In this document: positions 10,378 through 43,686 of the stretch, piece by piece
Position numbering within the stretch: the first letter of the stretch is position 1
How the letters are laid out: every line of letters starts with the position of its first letter
Made by a program: the position numbers and the translations under genes
Virus record (IMG/VR): IMGVR_UViG_3300035501_000350
Location: 32,001-96,000 of that record
Length of the DNA stretch: 64,000 nucleotides
Origin: a virus
Taxonomy: Duplodnaviria > Caudoviricetes
Strand: one strand, 5' to 3'
The notes under the pieces: model-generated
Seen by the model: the letters and a program-made list of their open reading frames with translations, nothing else
What the model was told of the DNA's origin: nothing
Databases searched by the model: none

Positions 10378-10518
10378 TTTATTTACCTCCATTTGTTTTT
10401 AATCAAGTACATACTTTCTTGTACTCGTTATTATATTATGCAACTATTCCCAATTTTAATATATGCGTTTTTTGCTTAATCTGACATCAATATAATTAAA
10501 TAAATGGAGGATCAGCGT

Positions 10519-11685
10519 ATGAAAGATACTACCGCTATATTAGATACAGCTTACCCTGAAGTAGAGAAACAGATTAAAGCAAATCTATCTGGGTATAAGA
10601 AATACATTTCTAAATTTATCAATTCAAGATCAGCACTATTATACTCCAATATGCCGTCTAAGCAGATATATTTTACTAATGATGATGCAAAAGAATTCTT
10701 TGCTTCAATTAAATTAGATCAGAAGATTATTAAGACAGCCATACAGCATACTTATTACGCCGATGTAGCAAAGTTCAATCCAAGATATGCTAAAGATGAA
10801 TGTACAGTGGCAATGTTATGCATAGTGAGATACTTTAAGCTTCATAATATGTCTAAAGAGCTTGAGCTGGCATTAATCAATATGGCATTTAGTGGTAAGT
10901 ATTACCCGTCTATATGGTATGGTTCATTTAGATTTCCTGTAAATGAATATATAATGGAATATGTTGTAGAACATGTACTGTCTAATAAGTTTGATATTGT
11001 CCGTGAGGGTAATGTAATTGGAGCTGTTAAATCTATTGCTAAAACATGGAGTACAACGTACAATCAGAAATTCAAGGATTTCCATGATGATGATTGTGTT
11101 TATCTAATTCAGCAGCTTCATAATAGACTTAGATCATTTATGTCTAATATTGCTAATGTATATTTTGATTATAATGAAAGAAAAGACGCTTATCTAACAT
11201 ATGATTCTGATGATGTTGGGGATACTAATTATAGATTAGCAGATTCTGATTCATTTATGCTTAACCGTACTGTAGAGAATACTATGACTTACATTAACTC
11301 TCATGGCATAGATACTAGAATATGTAAGATGGCAACAAATGATCTAATTAAGATGGATGAGCTTAAGAGCATCATAGAGAATATCTTAATGAATTCCGAT
11401 AATCTGCCATTGATTAAAGAGTTTGTTACGTTAATGATTGTTACATACTATAATCAATCAAAAAAGAAAGATGTTAGAGACTTAGACTTTATATCTTTCT
11501 CTATTAAAGCAAAGCCTAATAATAAAGATAAATACATCACCAGACAGAAAGAGTTGTTAAACCAAATCCTTATTAATAATTCAGAGCAGTTCTCTAGAAG
11601 ACGTAATAGAGCTGCAACTGAATCTGCTTATTATAGATCTATTAATGCATACTTTGCGTTAATAATTCAGCAAGCAAATAAATAA
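10519..11685 (+). CDS. Hypothetical helical protein
   Basis: Long ORF, GGAGG RBS, promoter motif GACA-TCAATA-TA at 10483-10494. Confidence 0.75.
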   Translation: MKDTTAILDTAYPEVEKQIKANLSGYKKYISKFINSRSALLYSNMPSKQIYFTNDDAKEFFASIKLDQKIIKTAIQHTYYADVAKFNPRYAKDECTVAMLCIVRYFKLHNMSKELELALINMAFSGKYYPSIWYGSFRFPVNEYIMEYVVEHVLSNKFDIVREGNVIGAVKSIAKTWSTTYNQKFKDFHDDDCVYLIQQLHNRLRSFMSNIANVYFDYNERKDAYLTYDSDDVGDTNYRLADSDSFMLNRTVENTMTYINSHGIDTRICKMATNDLIKMDELKSIIENILMNSDNLPLIKEFVTLMIVTYYNQSKKKDVRDLDFISFSIKAKPNNKDKYITRQKELLNQILINNSEQFSRRRNRAATESAYYRSINAYFALIIQQANK

Positions 11686-11695
11686 AGCGGACGAC

Positions 11696-11848
11696 TTATC
11701 CGTATGGGGAAACCCATACGGATAAATCTAATGTGTAAAACTGCAATCGGAAATGTATTGGAGGTCTTAATGTCACATAATCGACACCATACAAAAGCAA
11801 TCCAAGTTAGGTGGGGAGAGCAAGAATTAAACTCACTCGCTTGGATTT
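11696..11848 (-). ncRNA. Candidate small RNA, dispersed member of the 40-kb array family
   Basis: Promoter TACAA-N7-AACA-N6-TA; 5' stem AATCCAAG/CTTGGATT; CATTAAGACCTCC tract; terminal CCGTATGG-N6-CCATACGG hairpin. Confidence 0.55.
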
Positions 11849-38400: not shown

Positions 38401-39757
38401 GTCTGATACTGAAGTTGATATGAATAGACGGAATGTAAATAGAATTGCTATTATCAATGAGATAGTAAGAGATTTCTGGGTTACATCCGGATATGATTAT
38501 AATACTCAACCATTTGTGTATGACTTCATATCTGATGATCTAATTATTAAAGATGAGAATGGTAATTTGATTATTCCTGCACTGGATGCAAATCAGTATA
38601 TCAATATCATTAAGAATGATACTCATCTTATCTACTATTATCATAATCCTAATGGGAACTGGTTTGAGAATGGTAGAGTAATAAATGCTCTTACATTCTT
38701 CTGGGAGTATTCTACTAATCTATATGGTAATAAGACTATATATGAACAGATGATGGCGTATTCTTCAGATGACGATCCATCTAATCTTACTAAGATAGAT
38801 CTTGGTACCGATACTAGAGAATGGGCCTATAATACCTCTATCTCTAGTGATATGACTTTCCATTTCATTGGTAAGACTACATCTCAAATTGTAGATAGAG
38901 TAAGCCATATTAAGTTTGCTGACTGTGTTTACGTTGGAACTATAGATGAAGATCTCTTGCAAGATTATAGCAAGGATTGGACAGGTGTATCTGCATTTAT
39001 TCATAATGATTCCGGAGGATTAGATAGAGTCATCAATAAGATAGATGTGATTACTTCTAATGAAGAATTTAAGTTTACTCCTAAGATGACTGAAAGTGTA
39101 GTCTTCTTGAACTATGATGAATTACAAAATATGCTCTATACTTTCAAAGACCTGTGTCAGCCCTCGCCAGAAGTCACTTTAGAAGGCTGTACTATCGGAA
39201 ATAACAATTATTTTGTATATGCGTGTCCTAAGAGTTACGCCTATGATGGAGACGACTGTTTGATAGAATTTATATTCCCAGATTTAAATTCTCCAGATAT
39301 AATGAATCATCTTACAGTTGGTACTACTCCTGTATATACATCTGGTATTTATAGTCTTAGTACTAATAATAGACTAGAATCTTTAGATCGTATGGAAATG
39401 ATCTTGTTAGATGAGATATCTTATACTAATAAATATGGCCATGAAGAAACCTATTGTGTATGGAGAACTAATGGCTTCTTTACTAGATTAGATGATGATT
39501 GTAAGTTTGATATTACTATAAGATTTAAAGATCATACTAAGTCTTATTCGTTTGATTATGACGAAACTATCAGAGCAATTGAGGTGAATGAAAACATGGA
39601 TACTGAAATCATTGATATGGATATTGACGAACTGTTTGGTTCTTCTAGCAGTGATTCTACTGTAACTCCTGTAGACGAGAATGTTACCCCTAAGCCCTCC
39701 AAGGCTAGAAGTAATAATGTGGTTATGATTGATGATATTAAAATATTAAACACGTAA
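35444..39757 (+). CDS. Large virion structural protein (baseplate/tail-associated)
   Basis: 1437 aa; repeated (L/V/I)F(I/R/E/A)NG beta motifs; internal repeat FKFTPKMTxxVVFLN. Confidence 0.65.
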   Translation: MITLEQKQKVLTALKSHTVTSVRANQKYKIPVIIDGEERLLTGIDIVDEADGYYAIIPKDGIIPRAIEHEHSYTTLKELEENNIIWGGIILNNSKDQNVYDHKSADGVEVSQRESIVTFGNKKVRFFNQKFFHYDDTWYEYKYSADEPQYTYGIIRVENMPFNPFEGKRNMKSFICSLNNLFYQRYCEPFMLFINKKFVSWNDIMVVFDCGTTYLLLYGEKYNYFDLRDAEIHMVILPFKVDYIGEESDDRFNMMYEITREYIQESMVINDDGSFTITSPGIDEIYRYRGMVYNVGAWLYQQLKYNALGKLSLQRKEKLRRFDVIKREYDLAGNIINTVYTKFNALDKDSYDTALYNQVTEGRTLFEFQDRAIFKFDSDGLLDYSSGVNTIALFDDITYFRRHYSNNTTAVVQDTHVRNILFRENFVVFRNGLFDPTCEMDISVHNVCTIDNPKKDNLDILVFYHLPIERIVTLLDKFDWDYIYEVSKNIIEKNLDVKNGVSAYVYDENGEVVNQFDQIDAIFSKSKFKFTPKMTSNVVFLNANDYERQIYLQMMAYYLDYQYTDDRLYEENYNEAMNTVMAFDPLLFSNLYHTNIDSKTYYGYEANESLLGVIDYENRKGLKIPRNKYEKHESYVLVFENGELIEEYSQMCVYPNFFFIPMDREFASQSRIEILYFNYIDNNEIGFYLTDYMVEHMQEAQSGDTKWYGTDIFNQFINPKDLKIFCKYPENIIVYNSLVKESSDIAFNVSYRDTEGDLYLIGDVVDECLNNTEDKCKLTAVSKRKFIYQRLCVENKSYRIILGSRFRYCDNPRQYMLFINGRRISEEYYYITIPKYTRPFWGMYLYTSRFVGPEDRIELFYLPEEFPNINDKLNLQITKSGYIQTRKENLEVPLDGRYYMIFANGKKIPADDIVPIDSHTIRLSKDQQTMKNIVVNRIYTDTMDEFSDYFKDESLSAYDTMTDYIINCLQLGTTELDKLFQVYEKMSDTEVDMNRRNVNRIAIINEIVRDFWVTSGYDYNTQPFVYDFISDDLIIKDENGNLIIPALDANQYINIIKNDTHLIYYYHNPNGNWFENGRVINALTFFWEYSTNLYGNKTIYEQMMAYSSDDDPSNLTKIDLGTDTREWAYNTSISSDMTFHFIGKTTSQIVDRVSHIKFADCVYVGTIDEDLLQDYSKDWTGVSAFIHNDSGGLDRVINKIDVITSNEEFKFTPKMTESVVFLNYDELQNMLYTFKDLCQPSPEVTLEGCTIGNNNYFVYACPKSYAYDGDDCLIEFIFPDLNSPDIMNHLTVGTTPVYTSGIYSLSTNNRLESLDRMEMILLDEISYTNKYGHEETYCVWRTNGFFTRLDDDCKFDITIRFKDHTKSYSFDYDETIRAIEVNENMDTEIIDMDIDELFGSSSSDSTVTPVDENVTPKPSKARSNNVVMIDDIKILNT

Positions 39758-39786
39758 CATGAATATAGCAGTTGTGACATATTTAT

Positions 39787-39980
39787 ACTGCTATCCGTAG
39801 TTGGGCCGCGATTAGTTAGGTACCGATAGCCCTCACTCCAAGTGTAAGAATTTACACAAATTCCTACATGTATATGATAGTTATGATTGCACCTTAACTA
39901 TCATGGGCATAAGAGTTGGTCCTCGCAGCCCCAGTATCAATCCGCCGCGTAGCCCTGTTTGGCCGCGCGGCGGGTTTCTT
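39787..39980 (+). ncRNA. Candidate structured ncRNA (about 190 nt)
   Basis: Promoter GACA-TATTTA-TA; several stems; GC-rich terminal hairpin followed by TTTCTT; no ORF in the track. Confidence 0.5.
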
Positions 39981-40013
39981 ATTATTAAAAATTAATATAA
40001 CGTACATATTAAT

Positions 40014-40119
40014 GACAGGTGCGTCCCTGTCTCCTTTCTGACCGGACACTGCGTATAATTTTGTTGCTAAAGCTTTTCACAGACGTTTCCCGTATGGTTA
40101 ATTCCATACGGGGAATGTT
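40014..40119 (+). ncRNA. Array RNA unit 1 (predicted)
   Basis: 5' stem GACAGG/CCTGTC, CTCCTTTCT tract, terminal hairpin. Confidence 0.55.
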
Positions 40120-40154
40120 CTTGTATAAAAATACAATACGATATACATATTAGT

Positions 40155-40268
40155 GGTGGGTTTGGTCGCCCATCTCTTTCCTGGTTTGAGCCTTTGAACT
40201 CCTATACCAGAGGCTCAGCATTTAGGTTTCCTTAGAGAATCCCCGTATGGTTAATTCCATACGGGGAT
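40155..40268 (+). ncRNA. Array RNA unit 2 (predicted)
   Basis: 5' stem GGTGGG/CCCATC, second stem TGAGCCTTTG/CAGAGGCTCA, terminal hairpin. Confidence 0.55.
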
Positions 40269-40307
40269 ACCTAGTGTAAAAATATACAATATGCTATACA
40301 TATTAGT

Positions 40308-40411
40308 GACGGGTCTTCCCGTGTGCCCATCCCTTCCGTACGGGTTTGATGCAGCCCGATTTTCAACTTATTGGCTTGGGGATTCCCCGTATGGTTAATT
40401 CCATACGGGGA
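40308..40411 (+). ncRNA. Array RNA unit 3 (predicted)
   Basis: 5' stem ACGGG/CCCGT, CCCTTCC tract, stem CGGGTT/AGCCCG, terminal hairpin. Confidence 0.55.
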
Positions 40412-40455
40412 TACCTCTATTGTGTAAAAATATACAACACGGTATACATATTAGT

Positions 40456-40590
40456 GATGGGATTGCTCAACTACCCATCTTTATGAATGGCCACTAGTAT
40501 ACTTCGGCGGTGGCACTAGTGGTTGTTTCATAGTATAGTGTCCTTAATGGGATATTCCCCGTATGGTTAATTCCATACGGGGGATGTTCC
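40456..40590 (+). ncRNA. Array RNA unit 4 (predicted)
   Basis: 5' stem GATGGG/CCCATC, stem CCACTAGT/ACTAGTGG, terminal hairpin. Confidence 0.55.
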
Positions 40591-40624
40591 GCGTAAGAAA
40601 ATACAACACATCATACATATTAGT

Positions 40625-40765
40625 GATGGATATAGTTACACGTGTTCATCATTCTTTCCAGTGTTGAGTTAGTAAGCCCTTGCCTGAAAACTCAGCGTTT
40701 TTACTCTTGTAGACATGTTAGACAAGGATATTCCCCGTATGGTTAATTCCATACGGGGGATGTTC
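40625..40765 (+). ncRNA. Array RNA unit 5 (predicted)
   Basis: 5' stem GATGGATAT/GTGTTCATC, TTCTTTCC tract, stem GTTGAGTT/AACTCAGC, terminal hairpin. Confidence 0.55.
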
Positions 40766-40838
40766 TGCTTTAAATTATAAATATATATTTATATTTACAT
40801 AAAGTTAATTTATTTACAATAATTGGAGGTTTAGAGAA

Positions 40839-41723
40839 ATGATGCTGCAGGAAGAATTTAATAAGATTACTACTGCCTATGAGAATTATATCAAGAACGG
40901 CGGGCCTAAGAGCAGTTCTGATAGAATGAACTACATTAATACTGTATTCAATAGTGTTAATATGGTAATCAAACTACTGTGTATTAGCGTTAATGGTGTT
41001 GATGTTGATTCTGCTGTGCTCACTGAGGCACAGTATAATAAGCGCAGTGCCATGGGTAATAAGCTGTTTGGCTCTCAGACAGCTAATGCAGAAGAAATTA
41101 CTAAACCTTCTGAGGATATTACTGAAGAAGAGTCTGTTGTTATTAATTCTGTATCTGTAGAGGATATTCCCTCTGCAGAGGAACAGTCTGAAGATACTAC
41201 TATTATTACTGAGGAGGATACCGATATGCCTGCAAAGGAAACCAAGACTAAGAAAAAGACTAGTACTAAAAAGAAGGCTGTTGAAGAGCCTTCCGAGGAA
41301 ACTAAGAAGACTACCACTAAAAAGAGGTCTACCAAGAAGACTAAGAAAGAGCCTATCGAAGCAGAAGTTAAGATGAAGGAAATCGAGGATTTCGTTGCCG
41401 GTAAGACTGCTGTTGATATTATCGGAGAAGAGCTTACCGCATGGGGTATTTCTTCTGATTCCTTTGTTTATAAGGCTCTTGTTAGACTTCCTGAACTTAC
41501 TAAGCATGCTGTTAAGTATGCTGAGGTTGTTGATCTTATTGCTGCTGATACTGGTAAACCTAAGGGAGTTATTTCCTCTGCTTTCACTAACATGGTTAAG
41601 AAAGCAGATTTCTCTAAGACCATCTACTTACCTAACTTCCTTAAGCTTACTGAAGAAGAGCTTCGTAGCAATAGAGACTTTGTAATCGAGCAGCTTGCCG
41701 AATATTGCGAGCCTGACGAGTAA
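40839..41723 (+). CDS. Protein with acidic and Lys/Thr-rich linker and C-terminal Spo0A-effector-like domain
   Basis: GGAGG RBS; the C-terminal ~100 aa align by eye with the Spo0A DNA-binding domain. Confidence 0.5.
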   Translation: MMLQEEFNKITTAYENYIKNGGPKSSSDRMNYINTVFNSVNMVIKLLCISVNGVDVDSAVLTEAQYNKRSAMGNKLFGSQTANAEEITKPSEDITEEESVVINSVSVEDIPSAEEQSEDTTIITEEDTDMPAKETKTKKKTSTKKKAVEEPSEETKKTTTKKRSTKKTKKEPIEAEVKMKEIEDFVAGKTAVDIIGEELTAWGISSDSFVYKALVRLPELTKHAVKYAEVVDLIAADTGKPKGVISSAFTNMVKKADFSKTIYLPNFLKLTEEELRSNRDFVIEQLAEYCEPDE

Positions 41724-41866
41724 TTTTGCCAACTTCCTTATCCTTTTTATTCTAATAAGAAAATACTGGGTCAAGGCGAGAGCCTTACCCAGTATTTTCT
41801 ACATTTTAATAATAGAAAAGTAATATACTTTTTCTACTATTATTATTGAGAGGATGTGAATTAATA

Positions 41867-42463
41867 ATGGGTAAACCTAGAAGAAAGTACGGTGAATCTA
41901 AAGAGGATTATATAAAGAGAGCCGCACTTGAGATGTACTCAGAAGGATACCATATTAGCGAGATCGCACCAAAACTCAATACTACGCAATTTAAGGTGTA
42001 TAACGCTGTAATGGTTAGTAGTAGCAGGACTACTACAGAAGAAGAACGTGAAGAAATGATTTACTTAAGATCTAAAGGGATGCCATATAGGGACATTGCT
42101 GCTATTGTAGGTCGTAGTGAATCATGTGTACGTTTAAGAGTTAAGACTCCAGCTAAGTTTAATTCTCGTGGCGGGCATCATATGTCAGATAAAGACCTTA
42201 ATAAGATGAAGGAATGGTACTCTGAGGGAAAGACCATTACCTGGATCGCTAAAAAGCTTGGAGTTAATAGAGATAATGTAATTCATAGAATCAGAAAGTC
42301 TGATTTATATGAGCCTAATAAATCTAAGATTACTCCTCTTACTATAGCAGAGAAGCGTAAGATAGATTTAATGAAGTCTAAGCGTATGATGCTTGATGAA
42401 ATGGTTGAAGAGACTGGTAGAGATCATAACCTGATCATCAAGTATATTAATAGAGGGAAGTAA
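41867..42463 (+). CDS. Multi-HTH DNA-binding protein
   Basis: Four HTH-like units (GYHISEIAPKL, GMPYRDIAAIVGRS, GKTITWIAKKLGVN, MMLDEMVEETGRD). Confidence 0.75.
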   Translation: MGKPRRKYGESKEDYIKRAALEMYSEGYHISEIAPKLNTTQFKVYNAVMVSSSRTTTEEEREEMIYLRSKGMPYRDIAAIVGRSESCVRLRVKTPAKFNSRGGHHMSDKDLNKMKEWYSEGKTITWIAKKLGVNRDNVIHRIRKSDLYEPNKSKITPLTIAEKRKIDLMKSKRMMLDEMVEETGRDHNLIIKYINRGK

Positions 42464-42486
42464 TATACTTCCTATAAATGGTAATT

Positions 42487-43503
42487 TTAATAGATGTATT
42501 TATTATGCGCTGCCTTAACAGCGTCATAAGATGTCTTTGCATAGATCATGGTAGTTTCAATATTAGCATGCCCAAGAAGCATTGAGATTTCATTAATGCT
42601 CATTCCATTATGCAGTGCGATAGTTGCTGTGGTGTGTCTAATAACATGGGGAGTTACTTTCTTATTTAAACCTACAGCTCTATCAGAGATAGTACCAACT
42701 ATCTTTTCTATAGCCTCTTTCTTTAGAGGATTGTATGGTTTTCTTTCAGATACAAATATGAATTCTGAATCGCCATTACGCTCTTTATCAATATATGTCT
42801 CTAGAGCTACCCTAGCTCTAGCATTCAGGAAGGATATTCTATGCTTAGATCCCTTACCGAAGATATGCACTGTATTTGCCCTCCAATCAATATCTTCAAA
42901 TTTTAAAATTGCTAACTCTGATACTCTACATGCTGTAGAGTATAGTGTTTCTATAATCGCATTATCCCTTGCAGATTGGCAAGCATTTCTTAATAATTCT
43001 AGCTCATATGGTGTTAGAGCTTGTCTAGGGGGAGTCTCATAATGTATTGGCTTGCATGGATACCCAGGGTTCTTTAAGATATATCCCATCTCGTGGCACC
43101 ATGTAAAGAATCTAACAATATACTCTCTGTATTTGTCTAGAGTTCTATTGCCAATATCATGGCTTAATTGATATCTAGTTAGATAATCTCTAATATCATC
43201 AGCTTCAATTTCATTTAAATCTTTTTGGCAATCTTTGAAGAATAACTCTAGAACTAATCTATACCCATAGCATGTCTCTGGAGTCAATCCTTCAGATTGT
43301 TTACATTCGATATATTTATATACTAATTTTGGAACTCCATTATTTCCTCTGGCGAAATATTGATTAGTAGTTTTCTCATAAAAATTAAAATTAACAGCGG
43401 CTTTATCCATGGAGCTAAGAATTTTGCTAATTTGATCTCCATTTAGATTTAAGCCGCATGATGCAAAGTTAGATACAACAGCGTTTTTATAGAAATTATA
43501 CAT
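42487..43503 (-). CDS. Tyrosine recombinase (XerC/XerD-like)
   Basis: ACRVSEL (R), GKGSKHR (K), HVIRH, LGH, TTMIY catalytic Tyr; N-terminal SAM-like domain. Confidence 0.93.
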   Translation of the reverse strand: MYNFYKNAVVSNFASCGLNLNGDQISKILSSMDKAAVNFNFYEKTTNQYFARGNNGVPKLVYKYIECKQSEGLTPETCYGYRLVLELFFKDCQKDLNEIEADDIRDYLTRYQLSHDIGNRTLDKYREYIVRFFTWCHEMGYILKNPGYPCKPIHYETPPRQALTPYELELLRNACQSARDNAIIETLYSTACRVSELAILKFEDIDWRANTVHIFGKGSKHRISFLNARARVALETYIDKERNGDSEFIFVSERKPYNPLKKEAIEKIVGTISDRAVGLNKKVTPHVIRHTTATIALHNGMSINEISMLLGHANIETTMIYAKTSYDAVKAAHNKYIY

Positions 43504-43686
43504 TAGAACCTCCATTATGGTGTGCTAGCGTAGTTTATAATACGTTATTACTCTTTACACTAATGTATTTCTTATTGTATAATTCTACTTTAACATGTTA
43601 AAGACAGTACCAATCCCAGGTGGAGCGCTCCACCTGGGACTAATCTGGGCTATATGCTAAATTTAACATATAAATCTCATTGGGCA

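What the first reader, a model, noticed from the sequence alone, without database searches (positions are those of the whole stretch)
40031..40660. Variable segments carry anti-Shine-Dalgarno and anti-AUG geometry
Seen: unit 1 CTCCTTTCT (complement AGAAAGGAG); unit 2 CCCATCTCTTTCCT (AGGA-N5-ATG) and GCATTTAGGTTTCCTT (AAGGA-N7-ATG); unit 3 CCCATCCCTTCC; unit 4 TTTCATAGTATAGTGTCCTT (AAGGA-N10-ATGAAA); unit 5 TTCATCATTCTTTCC. Established: Firmicutes sRNAs often use C/U-rich single-stranded seeds to block ribosome-binding sites. Inference: the array may be a panel of translational silencers, each aimed at a different host (for example defence) or phage mRNA.
Basis: partly seen in the sequence, partly recalled or inferred. 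Interest (0 to 1): 0.75.

Follow-up and report, generated by a model that had tools for sequence, protein, structure and literature searches.

The report
Jumbo-phage tandem small-RNA gene array
A large gut phage carries five back-to-back protein-free mini-genes for small RNAs; the "anti-start-codon" strings are just one arm of a conserved hairpin, and the C/U-rich "anti-ribosome-binding-site" strings are a shared repeat element next to it that may equally be a terminator tail, so a panel of differently aimed translation silencers is not shown.

Summary
All the quoted strings are present at the stated places. They lie in a 1.08-kb ORF-free gap (39758-40838) of a jumbo-phage fragment. The gap holds five paralogous cassettes. 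Each has an invariant box (TACATATTAGTG), a covarying 5' hairpin (GAUGGG/CCCAUC), a pyrimidine tract, a variable body and a hairpin with a UUAAUU loop.

- **CAU triplets:** in u2, u4 and u5 the "anti-AUG" CAU is the 3' arm of the 5' hairpin, or lies in the middle stem. Predicted P(unpaired) is 0.00-0.19 there and 0.39 in u3.
- **C/U tract:** it sits at one fixed position in four of five units, so it belongs to the repeat and is not a unit-specific seed. Unit 4 has UUUAU there instead.
- **Statistics:** anti-SD words are not enriched over dinucleotide shuffles (P 0.1-0.3). Accessibility-corrected pairing to 119 phage start regions is no better than shuffles. The host could not be tested.
- **Cassette parts elsewhere:** the same box and hairpin type flank a phage tRNA-Met. 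UUAAUU-loop hairpins are the usual gene-end hairpin across this phage family.
- **RNA evidence:** contigs from four gut metatranscriptomes stop 11-14 nt after unit 1's hairpin and C/U tract. This is a weak hint that the module forms RNA 3' ends.

This scan has noted similar tandem small-RNA arrays in other large gut and rumen phages.

The parts
39778..40045 (+). 'Head' RNA. A discrete stretch of about 265 nt recovered as one contig from RNA libraries. It starts at the C of a box-like GACATATTT. It contains a GC-rich hairpin with T run (39939-39985), the unit-1 box, the unit-1 5' hairpin and the CTCCTTTCT tract.
   Evidence: contigs 39778/81 to 40042/45 in 4 metatranscriptome runs, depth 5.7-9.1 against 2-4 for other phage contigs, with no loose ends. 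DNA assembly L059 continues identically. Fold z = -4.8. The strand is inferred from the box at the 5' end.
40003..40119 (+). Unit 1: box 40003-40014 (TACATATTAATG), 5' hairpin 40014-40031 (GACAGG/CCTGTC), pyrimidine tract 40030-40039, body, UUAAUU-loop hairpin 40082-40119.
40144..40268 (+). Unit 2: box 40144-40155, 5' hairpin 40155-40174 (GGTGGGT/GCCCATC), pyrimidine tract 40173-40182, middle hairpin about 40186-40218, second tract 40227-40233, UUAAUU-loop hairpin 40239-40268.
   Evidence: (z = -5.6).
40297..40411 (+). Unit 3: box 40297-40308, 5' hairpin (two alternative folds; CCCATC at 40326-40331), pyrimidine tract 40330-40337, body, UUAAUU-loop hairpin 40384-40411.
   Evidence: RNA-library contig 40320-40604 in run X1.
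40445..40591 (+). Unit 4: box 40445-40456, 5' hairpin 40456-40479 (GATGGG/CCCATC), U-rich TTTAT at 40480-40484 (no C/U tract), long middle hairpin 40481-40533, small hairpin 40538-40555, UUAAUU-loop hairpin 40548-40591.
   Evidence: (z = -6.2).
40614..40766 (+). Unit 5: box 40614-40625, 5' hairpin 40623-40652, pyrimidine tract 40652-40659, middle hairpin 40663-40696, UUAAUU-loop hairpin 40725-40766. This is the only array hairpin followed by a T-rich tail.
40794..40838 (+). Promoter-like TTTACA..AATAAT and GGAGG ribosome-binding site of the next gene (294 aa, 40839-41723), which closes the ORF-free gap.

Best explanation
The finding lies in five tandem paralogous small-RNA genes of a jumbo phage whose strong GGAGG ribosome-binding sites suggest a Firmicute-like host. 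Each unit has:
- a phage promoter/initiator box (..ATACATATTAGTG; the RNA 5' end is probably the C of TACAT);
- a covarying 5' hairpin;
- a short pyrimidine-rich tract;
- a variable body, usually holding one more hairpin;
- a hairpin with a UUAAUU loop, the family's usual RNA 3'-end hairpin.

The 'anti-AUG' CAU triplets are structural: they are the 3' arm of the 5' hairpin or lie inside the middle stem. The 'anti-SD' tract is a conserved part of the repeat, placed immediately 3' of that hairpin.

My best reading is that hairpin plus U/C-rich tail is first of all an RNA-end module. It acts as a terminator-like 3' end for the RNA coming from upstream and as a protective 5' hairpin for the RNA starting at its own box. 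The RNAs themselves are trans-acting or protein-binding small RNAs whose specificity, if any, lies in the variable bodies. Pairing of the exposed tract with Shine-Dalgarno sequences stays possible as a shared, non-specific contact.

Shown: the anatomy, covariation among paralogs, reuse of the cassette for a tRNA, family-wide hairpins and presence in RNA libraries. Inferred: promoter activity, RNA ends and any function.
For: - **ORF-free gap:** five direct repeats, with an invariant hairpin and box.
- **Structure:** every unit folds better than shuffles, z = -3.1 to -6.2, with the same layout.
- **5' stem:** compensatory changes between u1 and u4 (GACAGG/CCUGUC against GAUGGG/CCCAUC), read.
- **Pairing of the CAU strings:** P(unpaired) 0.00-0.04 in the 5' stems of u2, u4 and u5.
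- **tRNA cassette:** the same design (box CATACATAAATG, RNA, hairpin CCCAGATGG-TTAATT-CCATCTGGG) carries a tRNA-Met at genome 26540-26700, minus strand.
- **Large ncRNA region:** a like box heads an ORF-free structured region of about 550 nt.
- **Family hairpins:** TTAATT is the commonest 6-nt loop in hairpins with stems of 8 bp or more in four family genomes (27/58, 6/42, 10/47, 7/26). The hairpins are oriented with the upstream gene 34:4.
- **Box position:** TACAT-type boxes cluster 30-45 nt before start codons (13 of 35).
- **RNA libraries:** the head contig starts at the C of GACAT and ends 11-14 nt after the u1 hairpin and tract in four runs, while DNA assemblies continue. Contig 40320-40604 covers units 3-4.
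- **Terminator scan:** the u1 and u2 hairpin-plus-tract modules score as terminator-like.
- **Unit 4:** it keeps a U-rich tail, not a C/U one, at that position.
Against: - No transcript ends are mapped. Contigs cannot show strand or true ends, and the four runs may come from one campaign.
- A terminator 30-40 nt after its own start site would also stop that unit's RNA.
- The contig end lies 3-6 nt beyond the usual 7-9 nt release point.
- The head RNA would have to read through a textbook GC-rich terminator at 39939-39985.
- The 5' hairpins are weak for terminators (-7.8 to -10.1 kcal/mol).
- Exposed C/U tracts in u1 and u5 (P unpaired 0.70 and 0.91) and the 9-nt identity of u1 to the 16S tail fit a seed equally well.
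- No homologous array exists in relatives to test conservation.
Confidence: 0.45

Rival explanations
1. Sibling sRNAs with a shared anti-Shine-Dalgarno seed. The exposed C/U tract pairs with GGAGG-type ribosome-binding sites of host or phage mRNAs and blocks initiation, as in LhrC1-5, csRNAs or RsaE. The variable bodies add target preference.
For: - C/U tract at the same single-stranded position in 4 of 5 units, with P(unpaired) 0.70 in u1 and 0.91 in u5, and 0.89 for u2's second tract.
- u1's CUCCUUUCU is identical to the last 9 nt of the B. subtilis 16S tail (PMC5732282).
- Phage genes have strong SDs, with median aSD pairing of -9.2 kcal/mol.
- Known Firmicute precedents exist (PMC4132741, PMC3091779).
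- 16S-tail 5-mers occur 3.6 times more often than the genome rate.
Against: - Not enriched over dinucleotide shuffles (P 0.10-0.33).
- Best energies on 119 phage start regions are no better than shuffles, with 17-94 of 100 as good.
- u4 lacks the tract. The u2 first tract, u3 and u4 tracts are predicted to be largely paired.
- The anti-AUG half of the geometry is inside stems.
- The core aSD CCUCC is absent from all units.
Confidence: 0.25
2. One long precursor. The array is transcribed from the head promoter (or as read-through of the upstream 1437-aa gene) and cut at the hairpins into stable pieces. The boxes would then be RNA motifs, not promoters.
For: - Array hairpins 1-4 lack T runs.
- RNA-library contigs bridge the unit-1 box (39778-40045) and the unit-3 hairpin into unit 4 (40320-40604).
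- The extended 16-19 bp stems of the u1, u4 and u5 hairpins approach RNase III substrate length.
- The tRNA cassette needs processing in any case.
Against: - The 12-nt box is the best-conserved part of the repeat.
- Its core recurs 30-45 nt before protein genes, before a tRNA and before a large ncRNA region.
- The head contig's 5' end falls exactly on a box-like motif.
- Contig bridging can also come from DNA carry-over or from overlapping RNAs.
Confidence: 0.15
3. DNA-level element. The 11-6-11 hairpins are recombination sites for the nearby tyrosine recombinase (integron- or Xer-like cassettes), or they are replication-origin iterons.
For: - Perfect 11-6-11 inverted repeat in five direct copies.
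- A tyrosine recombinase gene lies at 42487-43515.
- The module is absent at the syntenic place in relatives L007 and L009.
Against: - Hairpins with the same TTAATT loop but quite different, covarying stems occur 6-27 times per genome after genes throughout four family genomes.
- They are oriented with transcription 34:4 and mostly have T-rich tails, including relatives where no recombinase is adjacent (L016).
- The cassettes hold no ORFs.
- Five further assemblies of this phage are 99.9-100% identical over the parts of the gap they cover, and the one that spans the whole array (L059) has the same unit content.
Confidence: 0.03

Closest known systems
LhrC1-5 of Listeria monocytogenes (multicopy sRNA family; PMC4132741)
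   Same: - Five homologous small RNAs in a low-GC, SD-using setting, each with its own promoter and terminator.
- C/U-rich motifs in loops and single-stranded linkers that bind purine-rich sequence just upstream of start codons.
   Different: - LhrC motifs are UCCC, occur three per RNA, and were shown by probing and compensatory mutation.
- Here the tract is UCUUUCC-like, mostly one per RNA, absent in unit 4 and untested.
- The bodies here are unrelated in sequence, and the genes are on a phage.
- There is no sequence or Rfam match.
csRNAs of streptococci (CiaRH regulon; PMC3091779)
   Different: - In csRNAs both anti-SD and CAU are in the unpaired linker.
- Here the CAU is inside the 5' or middle stem.
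- There is no CiaR-type promoter and no Rfam csRNA match.
Small stable RNAs in phage tRNA regions (T4 RNAs C and D; own knowledge, not checked in a paper here)
   Same: Phage-encoded, abundant, structured small RNAs of unknown function that share expression signals with phage tRNA genes.
   Different: - T4 RNAs are co-transcribed with and processed alongside tRNAs in one cluster.
- Here the array is 45 kb from the tRNA and each unit carries its own box.
- There are five paralogs with a common 5' module.
Intrinsic (rho-independent) terminators and promoter-proximal terminated RNAs such as lambda 6S RNA (own knowledge)
   Same: A GC-closed hairpin directly followed by a U-rich tract, and a discrete abundant RNA ending just after it (head contig). 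The scan tool scores u1 and u2 as terminator-like.
   Different: - The tails are C/U mixed (3-5 U in 8).
- The stems are weak (-8 to -10 kcal/mol).
- The element sits only about 10-40 nt after a presumed start site.
- No antiterminator has been identified.

Membership tests
csRNA-type anti-TIR sRNA | [quoted passage not shown] | tested here: not met
   The CAU strings have predicted P(unpaired) of 0.00-0.04 in u2, u4 and u5, 0.19 for u4 TTTCATAG and 0.39 in u3. Only the C/U part is exposed, in u1, u5 and u2's second tract.
csRNA-type anti-TIR sRNA | Match to the curated RNA family model | tested here: not met
   There were no Rfam hits at gathering score in the window. Only chance-level hits appeared at E up to 10 in 39650-40900.
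LhrC-like C/U-rich-seed sibling sRNAs | Several paralogous sRNA genes, each with its own promoter and terminator | tested here: inconclusive
   There are five units with an invariant box and end hairpin. Promoter activity is inferred from reuse of the box and from one RNA-contig 5' end. It has not been measured.
LhrC-like C/U-rich-seed sibling sRNAs | Accessible UCCC/CU-rich motifs that pair with the SD region of targets better than chance | tested here: not met
   The tracts are accessible in only some units. Energies against 119 phage start regions are no better than 100 shuffles per unit. Host targets are not testable with these tools.
Intrinsic terminator | Stable GC-containing hairpin followed within 0-2 nt by a U-rich tract | tested here: inconclusive
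   u1 and u2 pass the scan. Tails have 3-5 U in 8, and stems are -7.8 to -10.1 kcal/mol.
Intrinsic terminator | RNA 3' ends mapped in or just after the tract | tested here: inconclusive
   Contigs from four RNA libraries stop at 40042-40045, 11-14 nt after the u1 stem, while DNA goes on. Contigs are only a weak hint of an end.
Integron attC / Xer-type recombination sites | Sites confined to the cassette array or recombinase neighbourhood, with cassettes carrying genes | tested here: not met
   The same loop-type hairpin is dispersed after genes genome-wide in four family genomes and is oriented with transcription 34:4. The cassettes are ORF-free.
CRISPR array / CRISPR-repeat mimic | Short identical repeats with regular spacing, and a match to CRISPR repeat models | tested here: not met
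   The repeat unit is about 75 nt including the box. Spacing is 144-176 nt and irregular. There was no Rfam CRISPR-DR hit and TRF found no array.
tRNA or tmRNA | Cloverleaf detected by ARAGORN or Rfam | tested here: not met
   There are no tRNA or tmRNA genes in the window. The only tRNA of the contig is elsewhere.

The most novel reading that the evidence does not exclude
The array makes a battery of stable phage RNAs that each display, next to a hairpin, a free pyrimidine tail copying the 3' tail of Firmicute 16S rRNA (u1: CUCCUUUCU, 9 of 9). These ribosome-tail mimics would occupy Shine-Dalgarno sites of host mRNAs in bulk during infection. The same hairpin-tail module would double as terminator for one RNA and as 5' cap-hairpin for the next, giving an overlapping gene design not described for sRNA loci.
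Probability: 0.1. Interest if true: 0.75.

Novelty: new variant of a known kind. Interest (0 to 1): 0.4.

Why it matters
Small RNAs encoded by phages are poorly charted, above all in jumbo phages of gut anaerobes that bring their own RNA polymerases. This locus offers a compact, testable case:
- five paralogous RNA genes with a defined box;
- a shared hairpin-tail module;
- an end hairpin whose UUAAUU loop is conserved across a whole phage family.

If the boxes are promoters of a phage polymerase and the UUAAUU hairpins its stop or stability signals, they give handles for annotating transcription units in these uncultured phages.

For the specific claim, a panel of RBS blockers, the value of this follow-up is mainly negative. 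The anti-AUG geometry is a by-product of a stem, and the anti-SD tract is one shared element with an equally good terminator reading.

Tried and rejected
- **Relatives by DNA:** no hit in the phage collection. Exact hairpin searches in viral and metagenome contigs found nothing. The box-gap-loop pattern found nothing in viral contigs and one unrelated eukaryote-like contig in metagenomes.
- **Relatives by protein:** single-protein scans found nothing. The homologue search and profile scan found many 33-50% identical phages. The array is absent after the homologous gene in L007 and L009.
- **Variable segments:** none has a BLAST match in three complete relatives or in the other loci.
- **Other assemblies of the same phage:** 99.9-100% identical, so there is no covariation to use.
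- **Relatives' records:** ENA loci could not be used as handles.
- **Rfam:** nothing for the array or head RNA, nor for the other ORF-free regions.
- **Neighbouring proteins:** PADLOC and Pfam give no defence, toxin or RNA-binding family. The 294-aa protein has no Pfam match, including Spo0A_C.
- **Interaction scripts:** the first script timed out and a background job was killed. It was re-run successfully.
- **RNA-library gaps:** parts of the array without contig cover in runs X1-X4 are not evidence of silence.
- **Host identity:** not determined, so no host start regions were tested.

Full report
**Setting**

The window is bases 32001-96000 of a 119.9-kb virus record that CheckV rates 38% complete. 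The genes include:
- topoisomerase II subunits;
- a divergent DnaB;
- NrdD;
- a PhiKZ-vertex-like virion protein;
- a tyrosine recombinase.

Homologues of the 1437-aa protein upstream of the finding sit on 207-313 kb phage contigs. One relative encodes an RNA-polymerase beta'-like protein, judged by eye from the translated sequence and not run against any family library. Start codons are preceded by strong GGAGG sites, with median pairing to a Firmicute anti-SD of -9.2 kcal/mol. This suggests an SD-using, probably Firmicute host. The runs that hold the sequence are animal-gut metatranscriptomes.

**What is at 40031-40660**

The finding lies in a 1081-nt ORF-free gap (39758-40838) between two plus-strand genes. 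The gap holds five direct repeats. Each unit has, in order:
- an invariant box ATACATATTAGTG (TACATATTAATG in unit 1);
- a 5' hairpin whose 5' arm (GATGGG) is the end of the box and whose 3' arm is CCCATC;
- a pyrimidine tract;
- a body of 40-70 nt unrelated between units, usually with one more hairpin;
- the identical hairpin CCCCGTATGG-TTAATT-CCATACGGGG.

All five units fold better than shuffles (z = -3.1 to -6.2) and share this layout. Between u1 and u4 the 5' stem shows two compensatory changes, GACAGG/CCUGUC against GAUGGG/CCCAUC. There is no tRNA, no Rfam family and no convincing ORF.

**Check of the observation**

Every quoted string is present. Two points change their meaning.

First, the 'anti-AUG' CAU triplets of u2, u3, u4 and u5 belong to the 3' arm of the 5' hairpin. 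In u4's TTTCATAG they belong to the base of the middle hairpin. Their predicted P(unpaired) is 0.02, 0.39, 0.00/0.19 and 0.04. They exist because the conserved 5' end contains AUG (GUGAUGG) and the stem must pair with it.

Second, the C/U tract sits at one fixed place, right after that hairpin, in four of five units: TCTCCTTTCT, TCTCTTTCCT, TCCCTTCC and TTCTTTCC. It is therefore part of the repeat. Unit 4 has TTTATGAA there.

Statistics against dinucleotide shuffles of the bodies:

| Measure | Result |
|---|---|
| 16S-tail 4-, 5-, 6-mers | P = 0.33, 0.10, 0.11 |
| Pyrimidine runs | P = 0.19-0.27 |
| CAT-N4-10-antiSD geometry | 4 observed vs 0.98 expected, P = 0.014 |

The geometry definition was chosen after the fact, and two of the four cases are the homologous 5' module. 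Accessibility of the tracts is mixed: u1 0.70, u5 0.91, u2 0.28 and 0.89, u3 0.40, u4 0.30.

I built a simplified IntaRNA-like score: ViennaRNA duplex energies plus opening energies of both partners. I ran each unit, plus a candidate sixth unit u0 (39885-39985) inside the head RNA, against 119 phage start regions (-24 to +9), with 100 dinucleotide shuffles of each body. The best energies were -4.2 to -9.3 kcal/mol, and 17-94 of 100 shuffles did as well or better. Counts of sites at -8 or below were also no higher than in shuffles. Only 38% of the phage genome and no host sequence could be tested, so this is absence of support, not refutation.

**What the conserved parts are**

The same cassette design carries a tRNA-Met(CAU) on the minus strand at genome 26540-26700. 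It reads box CATACATAAATG, tRNA, 35-nt trailer, then hairpin CCCAGATGG-TTAATT-CCATCTGGG, which has the same loop and a covarying stem. A like box (TATACATTTTTAGTAAG) heads an ORF-free, GC-rich region of about 550 nt at genome 20130-19570, minus strand. TACAT-type motifs cluster 30-45 nt before start codons, 13 of 35 occurrences within 120 nt.

Hairpins with a TTAATT loop are the commonest six-base-loop hairpins in four genomes of the family: 27/58, 6/42, 10/47 and 7/26. Their stems are unrelated and covary. They sit after genes, are oriented with the upstream gene 34:4, and mostly have T-rich tails. The 'invariant hairpin' is therefore the family's generic RNA 3'-end hairpin. That argues against a recombination-site reading.

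A single similar cassette exists in relative G002: box ACACATTAGTGA, a 55-nt RNA, then CCCCTATGGG-TTAATT-CCCATAGGGG. No relative has an array.

**RNA evidence**

Four animal-gut metatranscriptome runs each contain a 262-268-nt contig covering 39778/81 to 40042/45 at depth 5.7-9.1. Other phage contigs in these runs have depth 2-4. There are no loose ends, and all four share a T>C at 39871 that is also seen in DNA assembly L059, which continues identically on both sides.

The 5' end falls on the C of a box-like GACATATTT. This suggests plus-strand transcription starting inside the box. The 3' end falls 11-14 nt after the unit-1 5' hairpin and its CTCCTTTCT tract, not at the GC-rich terminator at 39939-39985 and not at the unit-1 UUAAUU hairpin. 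Run X1 also has a contig at 40320-40604 across units 3-4.

Contigs cannot prove ends or strand, so this is a weak hint. It is nonetheless the only direct data, and it points to the hairpin-plus-tract module as an RNA 3'-end former. The consensus scan independently scores the u1 and u2 modules as terminator-like. Array hairpins 1-4 lack T runs, whereas the last one has a T-rich tail.

This allows an overlapping-unit model. RNA n would run from box n through its UUAAUU hairpin to the hairpin-tail of unit n+1. That module would also form the 5' end of RNA n+1.

**Conclusion**

The array of small-RNA genes is real and unusual. The finding as worded is only partly right:
- The anti-AUG half is a structural by-product of the 5' stem.
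- The anti-SD half is one shared module, not a set of different seeds.
- Its statistics do not exceed composition.
- No phage target stands out.

A shared C/U seed like those of LhrC (PMC4132741) or the csRNAs (PMC3091779) remains possible. The 9-nt identity of u1 to the B. subtilis 16S tail GAUCACCUCCUUUCU (PMC5732282) is worth noting. A terminator-tail role explains unit 4 and the RNA contig ends at least as well.

Earlier notes of this scan describe comparable tandem small-RNA cassettes in other large gut and rumen phages. I did not test those.

Noticed in passing
Whole phage family: G000 (own genome), G002 = L020-L033, G003 = L034-L045, G005 = L046-L058; e.g. L016:21857-21884: Gene-end hairpins across this jumbo-phage family share the hexaloop TTAATT on covarying 9-17 bp stems. 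There are 6-27 per genome, it is the commonest 6-nt loop, and the hairpins are oriented with the upstream gene 34:4. A conserved terminator loop suggests recognition by a phage factor or polymerase.
   Followed up: partly
Own genome G000:C1:26540-26700, minus strand (L067:6540-6700), outside the window: A tRNA-Met(CAU) with encoded CCA is expressed from the same box/hairpin cassette as the array units. The box lies in the loop of an ATCATCT/AGATGAT inverted repeat.
   Followed up: partly
Own genome G000:C1:19570-20130, minus strand (L066:19570-20000 and L067:1-130): An ORF-free, GC-rich structured region of about 550 nt sits behind a TATACATTTTTAGTAAG box. It has two copies of an approximately 37-nt segment (AAAACTAYTTCCGGAGCCTTTGGGCGGAGGAA). 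No Rfam family matches. It is a candidate large phage ncRNA.
   Followed up: partly
L037:3100-4140 (G003:63100-64140): A relative carries a GC-rich ORF-free structured stretch of about 750 nt between a weak tRNA-like hit (L037:3180-3250, 29.2 bits) and a tRNA-Lys, followed by a TTAATT hairpin. No other Rfam family matches. It may be a large ncRNA next to tRNAs, in the manner of GOLLD or ROOL loci.
   Followed up: partly
window 39758-43515: The array, a 294-aa protein with an acidic then K/T-rich middle and no Pfam match, a 205-aa multi-HTH protein and a convergent tyrosine recombinase are absent from the syntenic place in relatives L007 and L009. There a 387-411-aa SH3-like protein follows the large virion gene directly. 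This looks like a lineage-specific insertion.
   Followed up: partly
window 39997/39998, 40269, 40736: Independent DNA assemblies of the same phage break inside the array: L063 and L064 end at 39997/8, L062 ends at 40269 and L060/L061 start at 40736. Short-read assemblers therefore fragment this locus, and such arrays may be under-represented in contig collections.
   Followed up: no
window 11700-11721: The terminator hairpin CCGTATGG-GGAAAC-CCATACGG after the gene at 10504-11685 shares the stem of the array hairpin but has a different loop.
   Followed up: no
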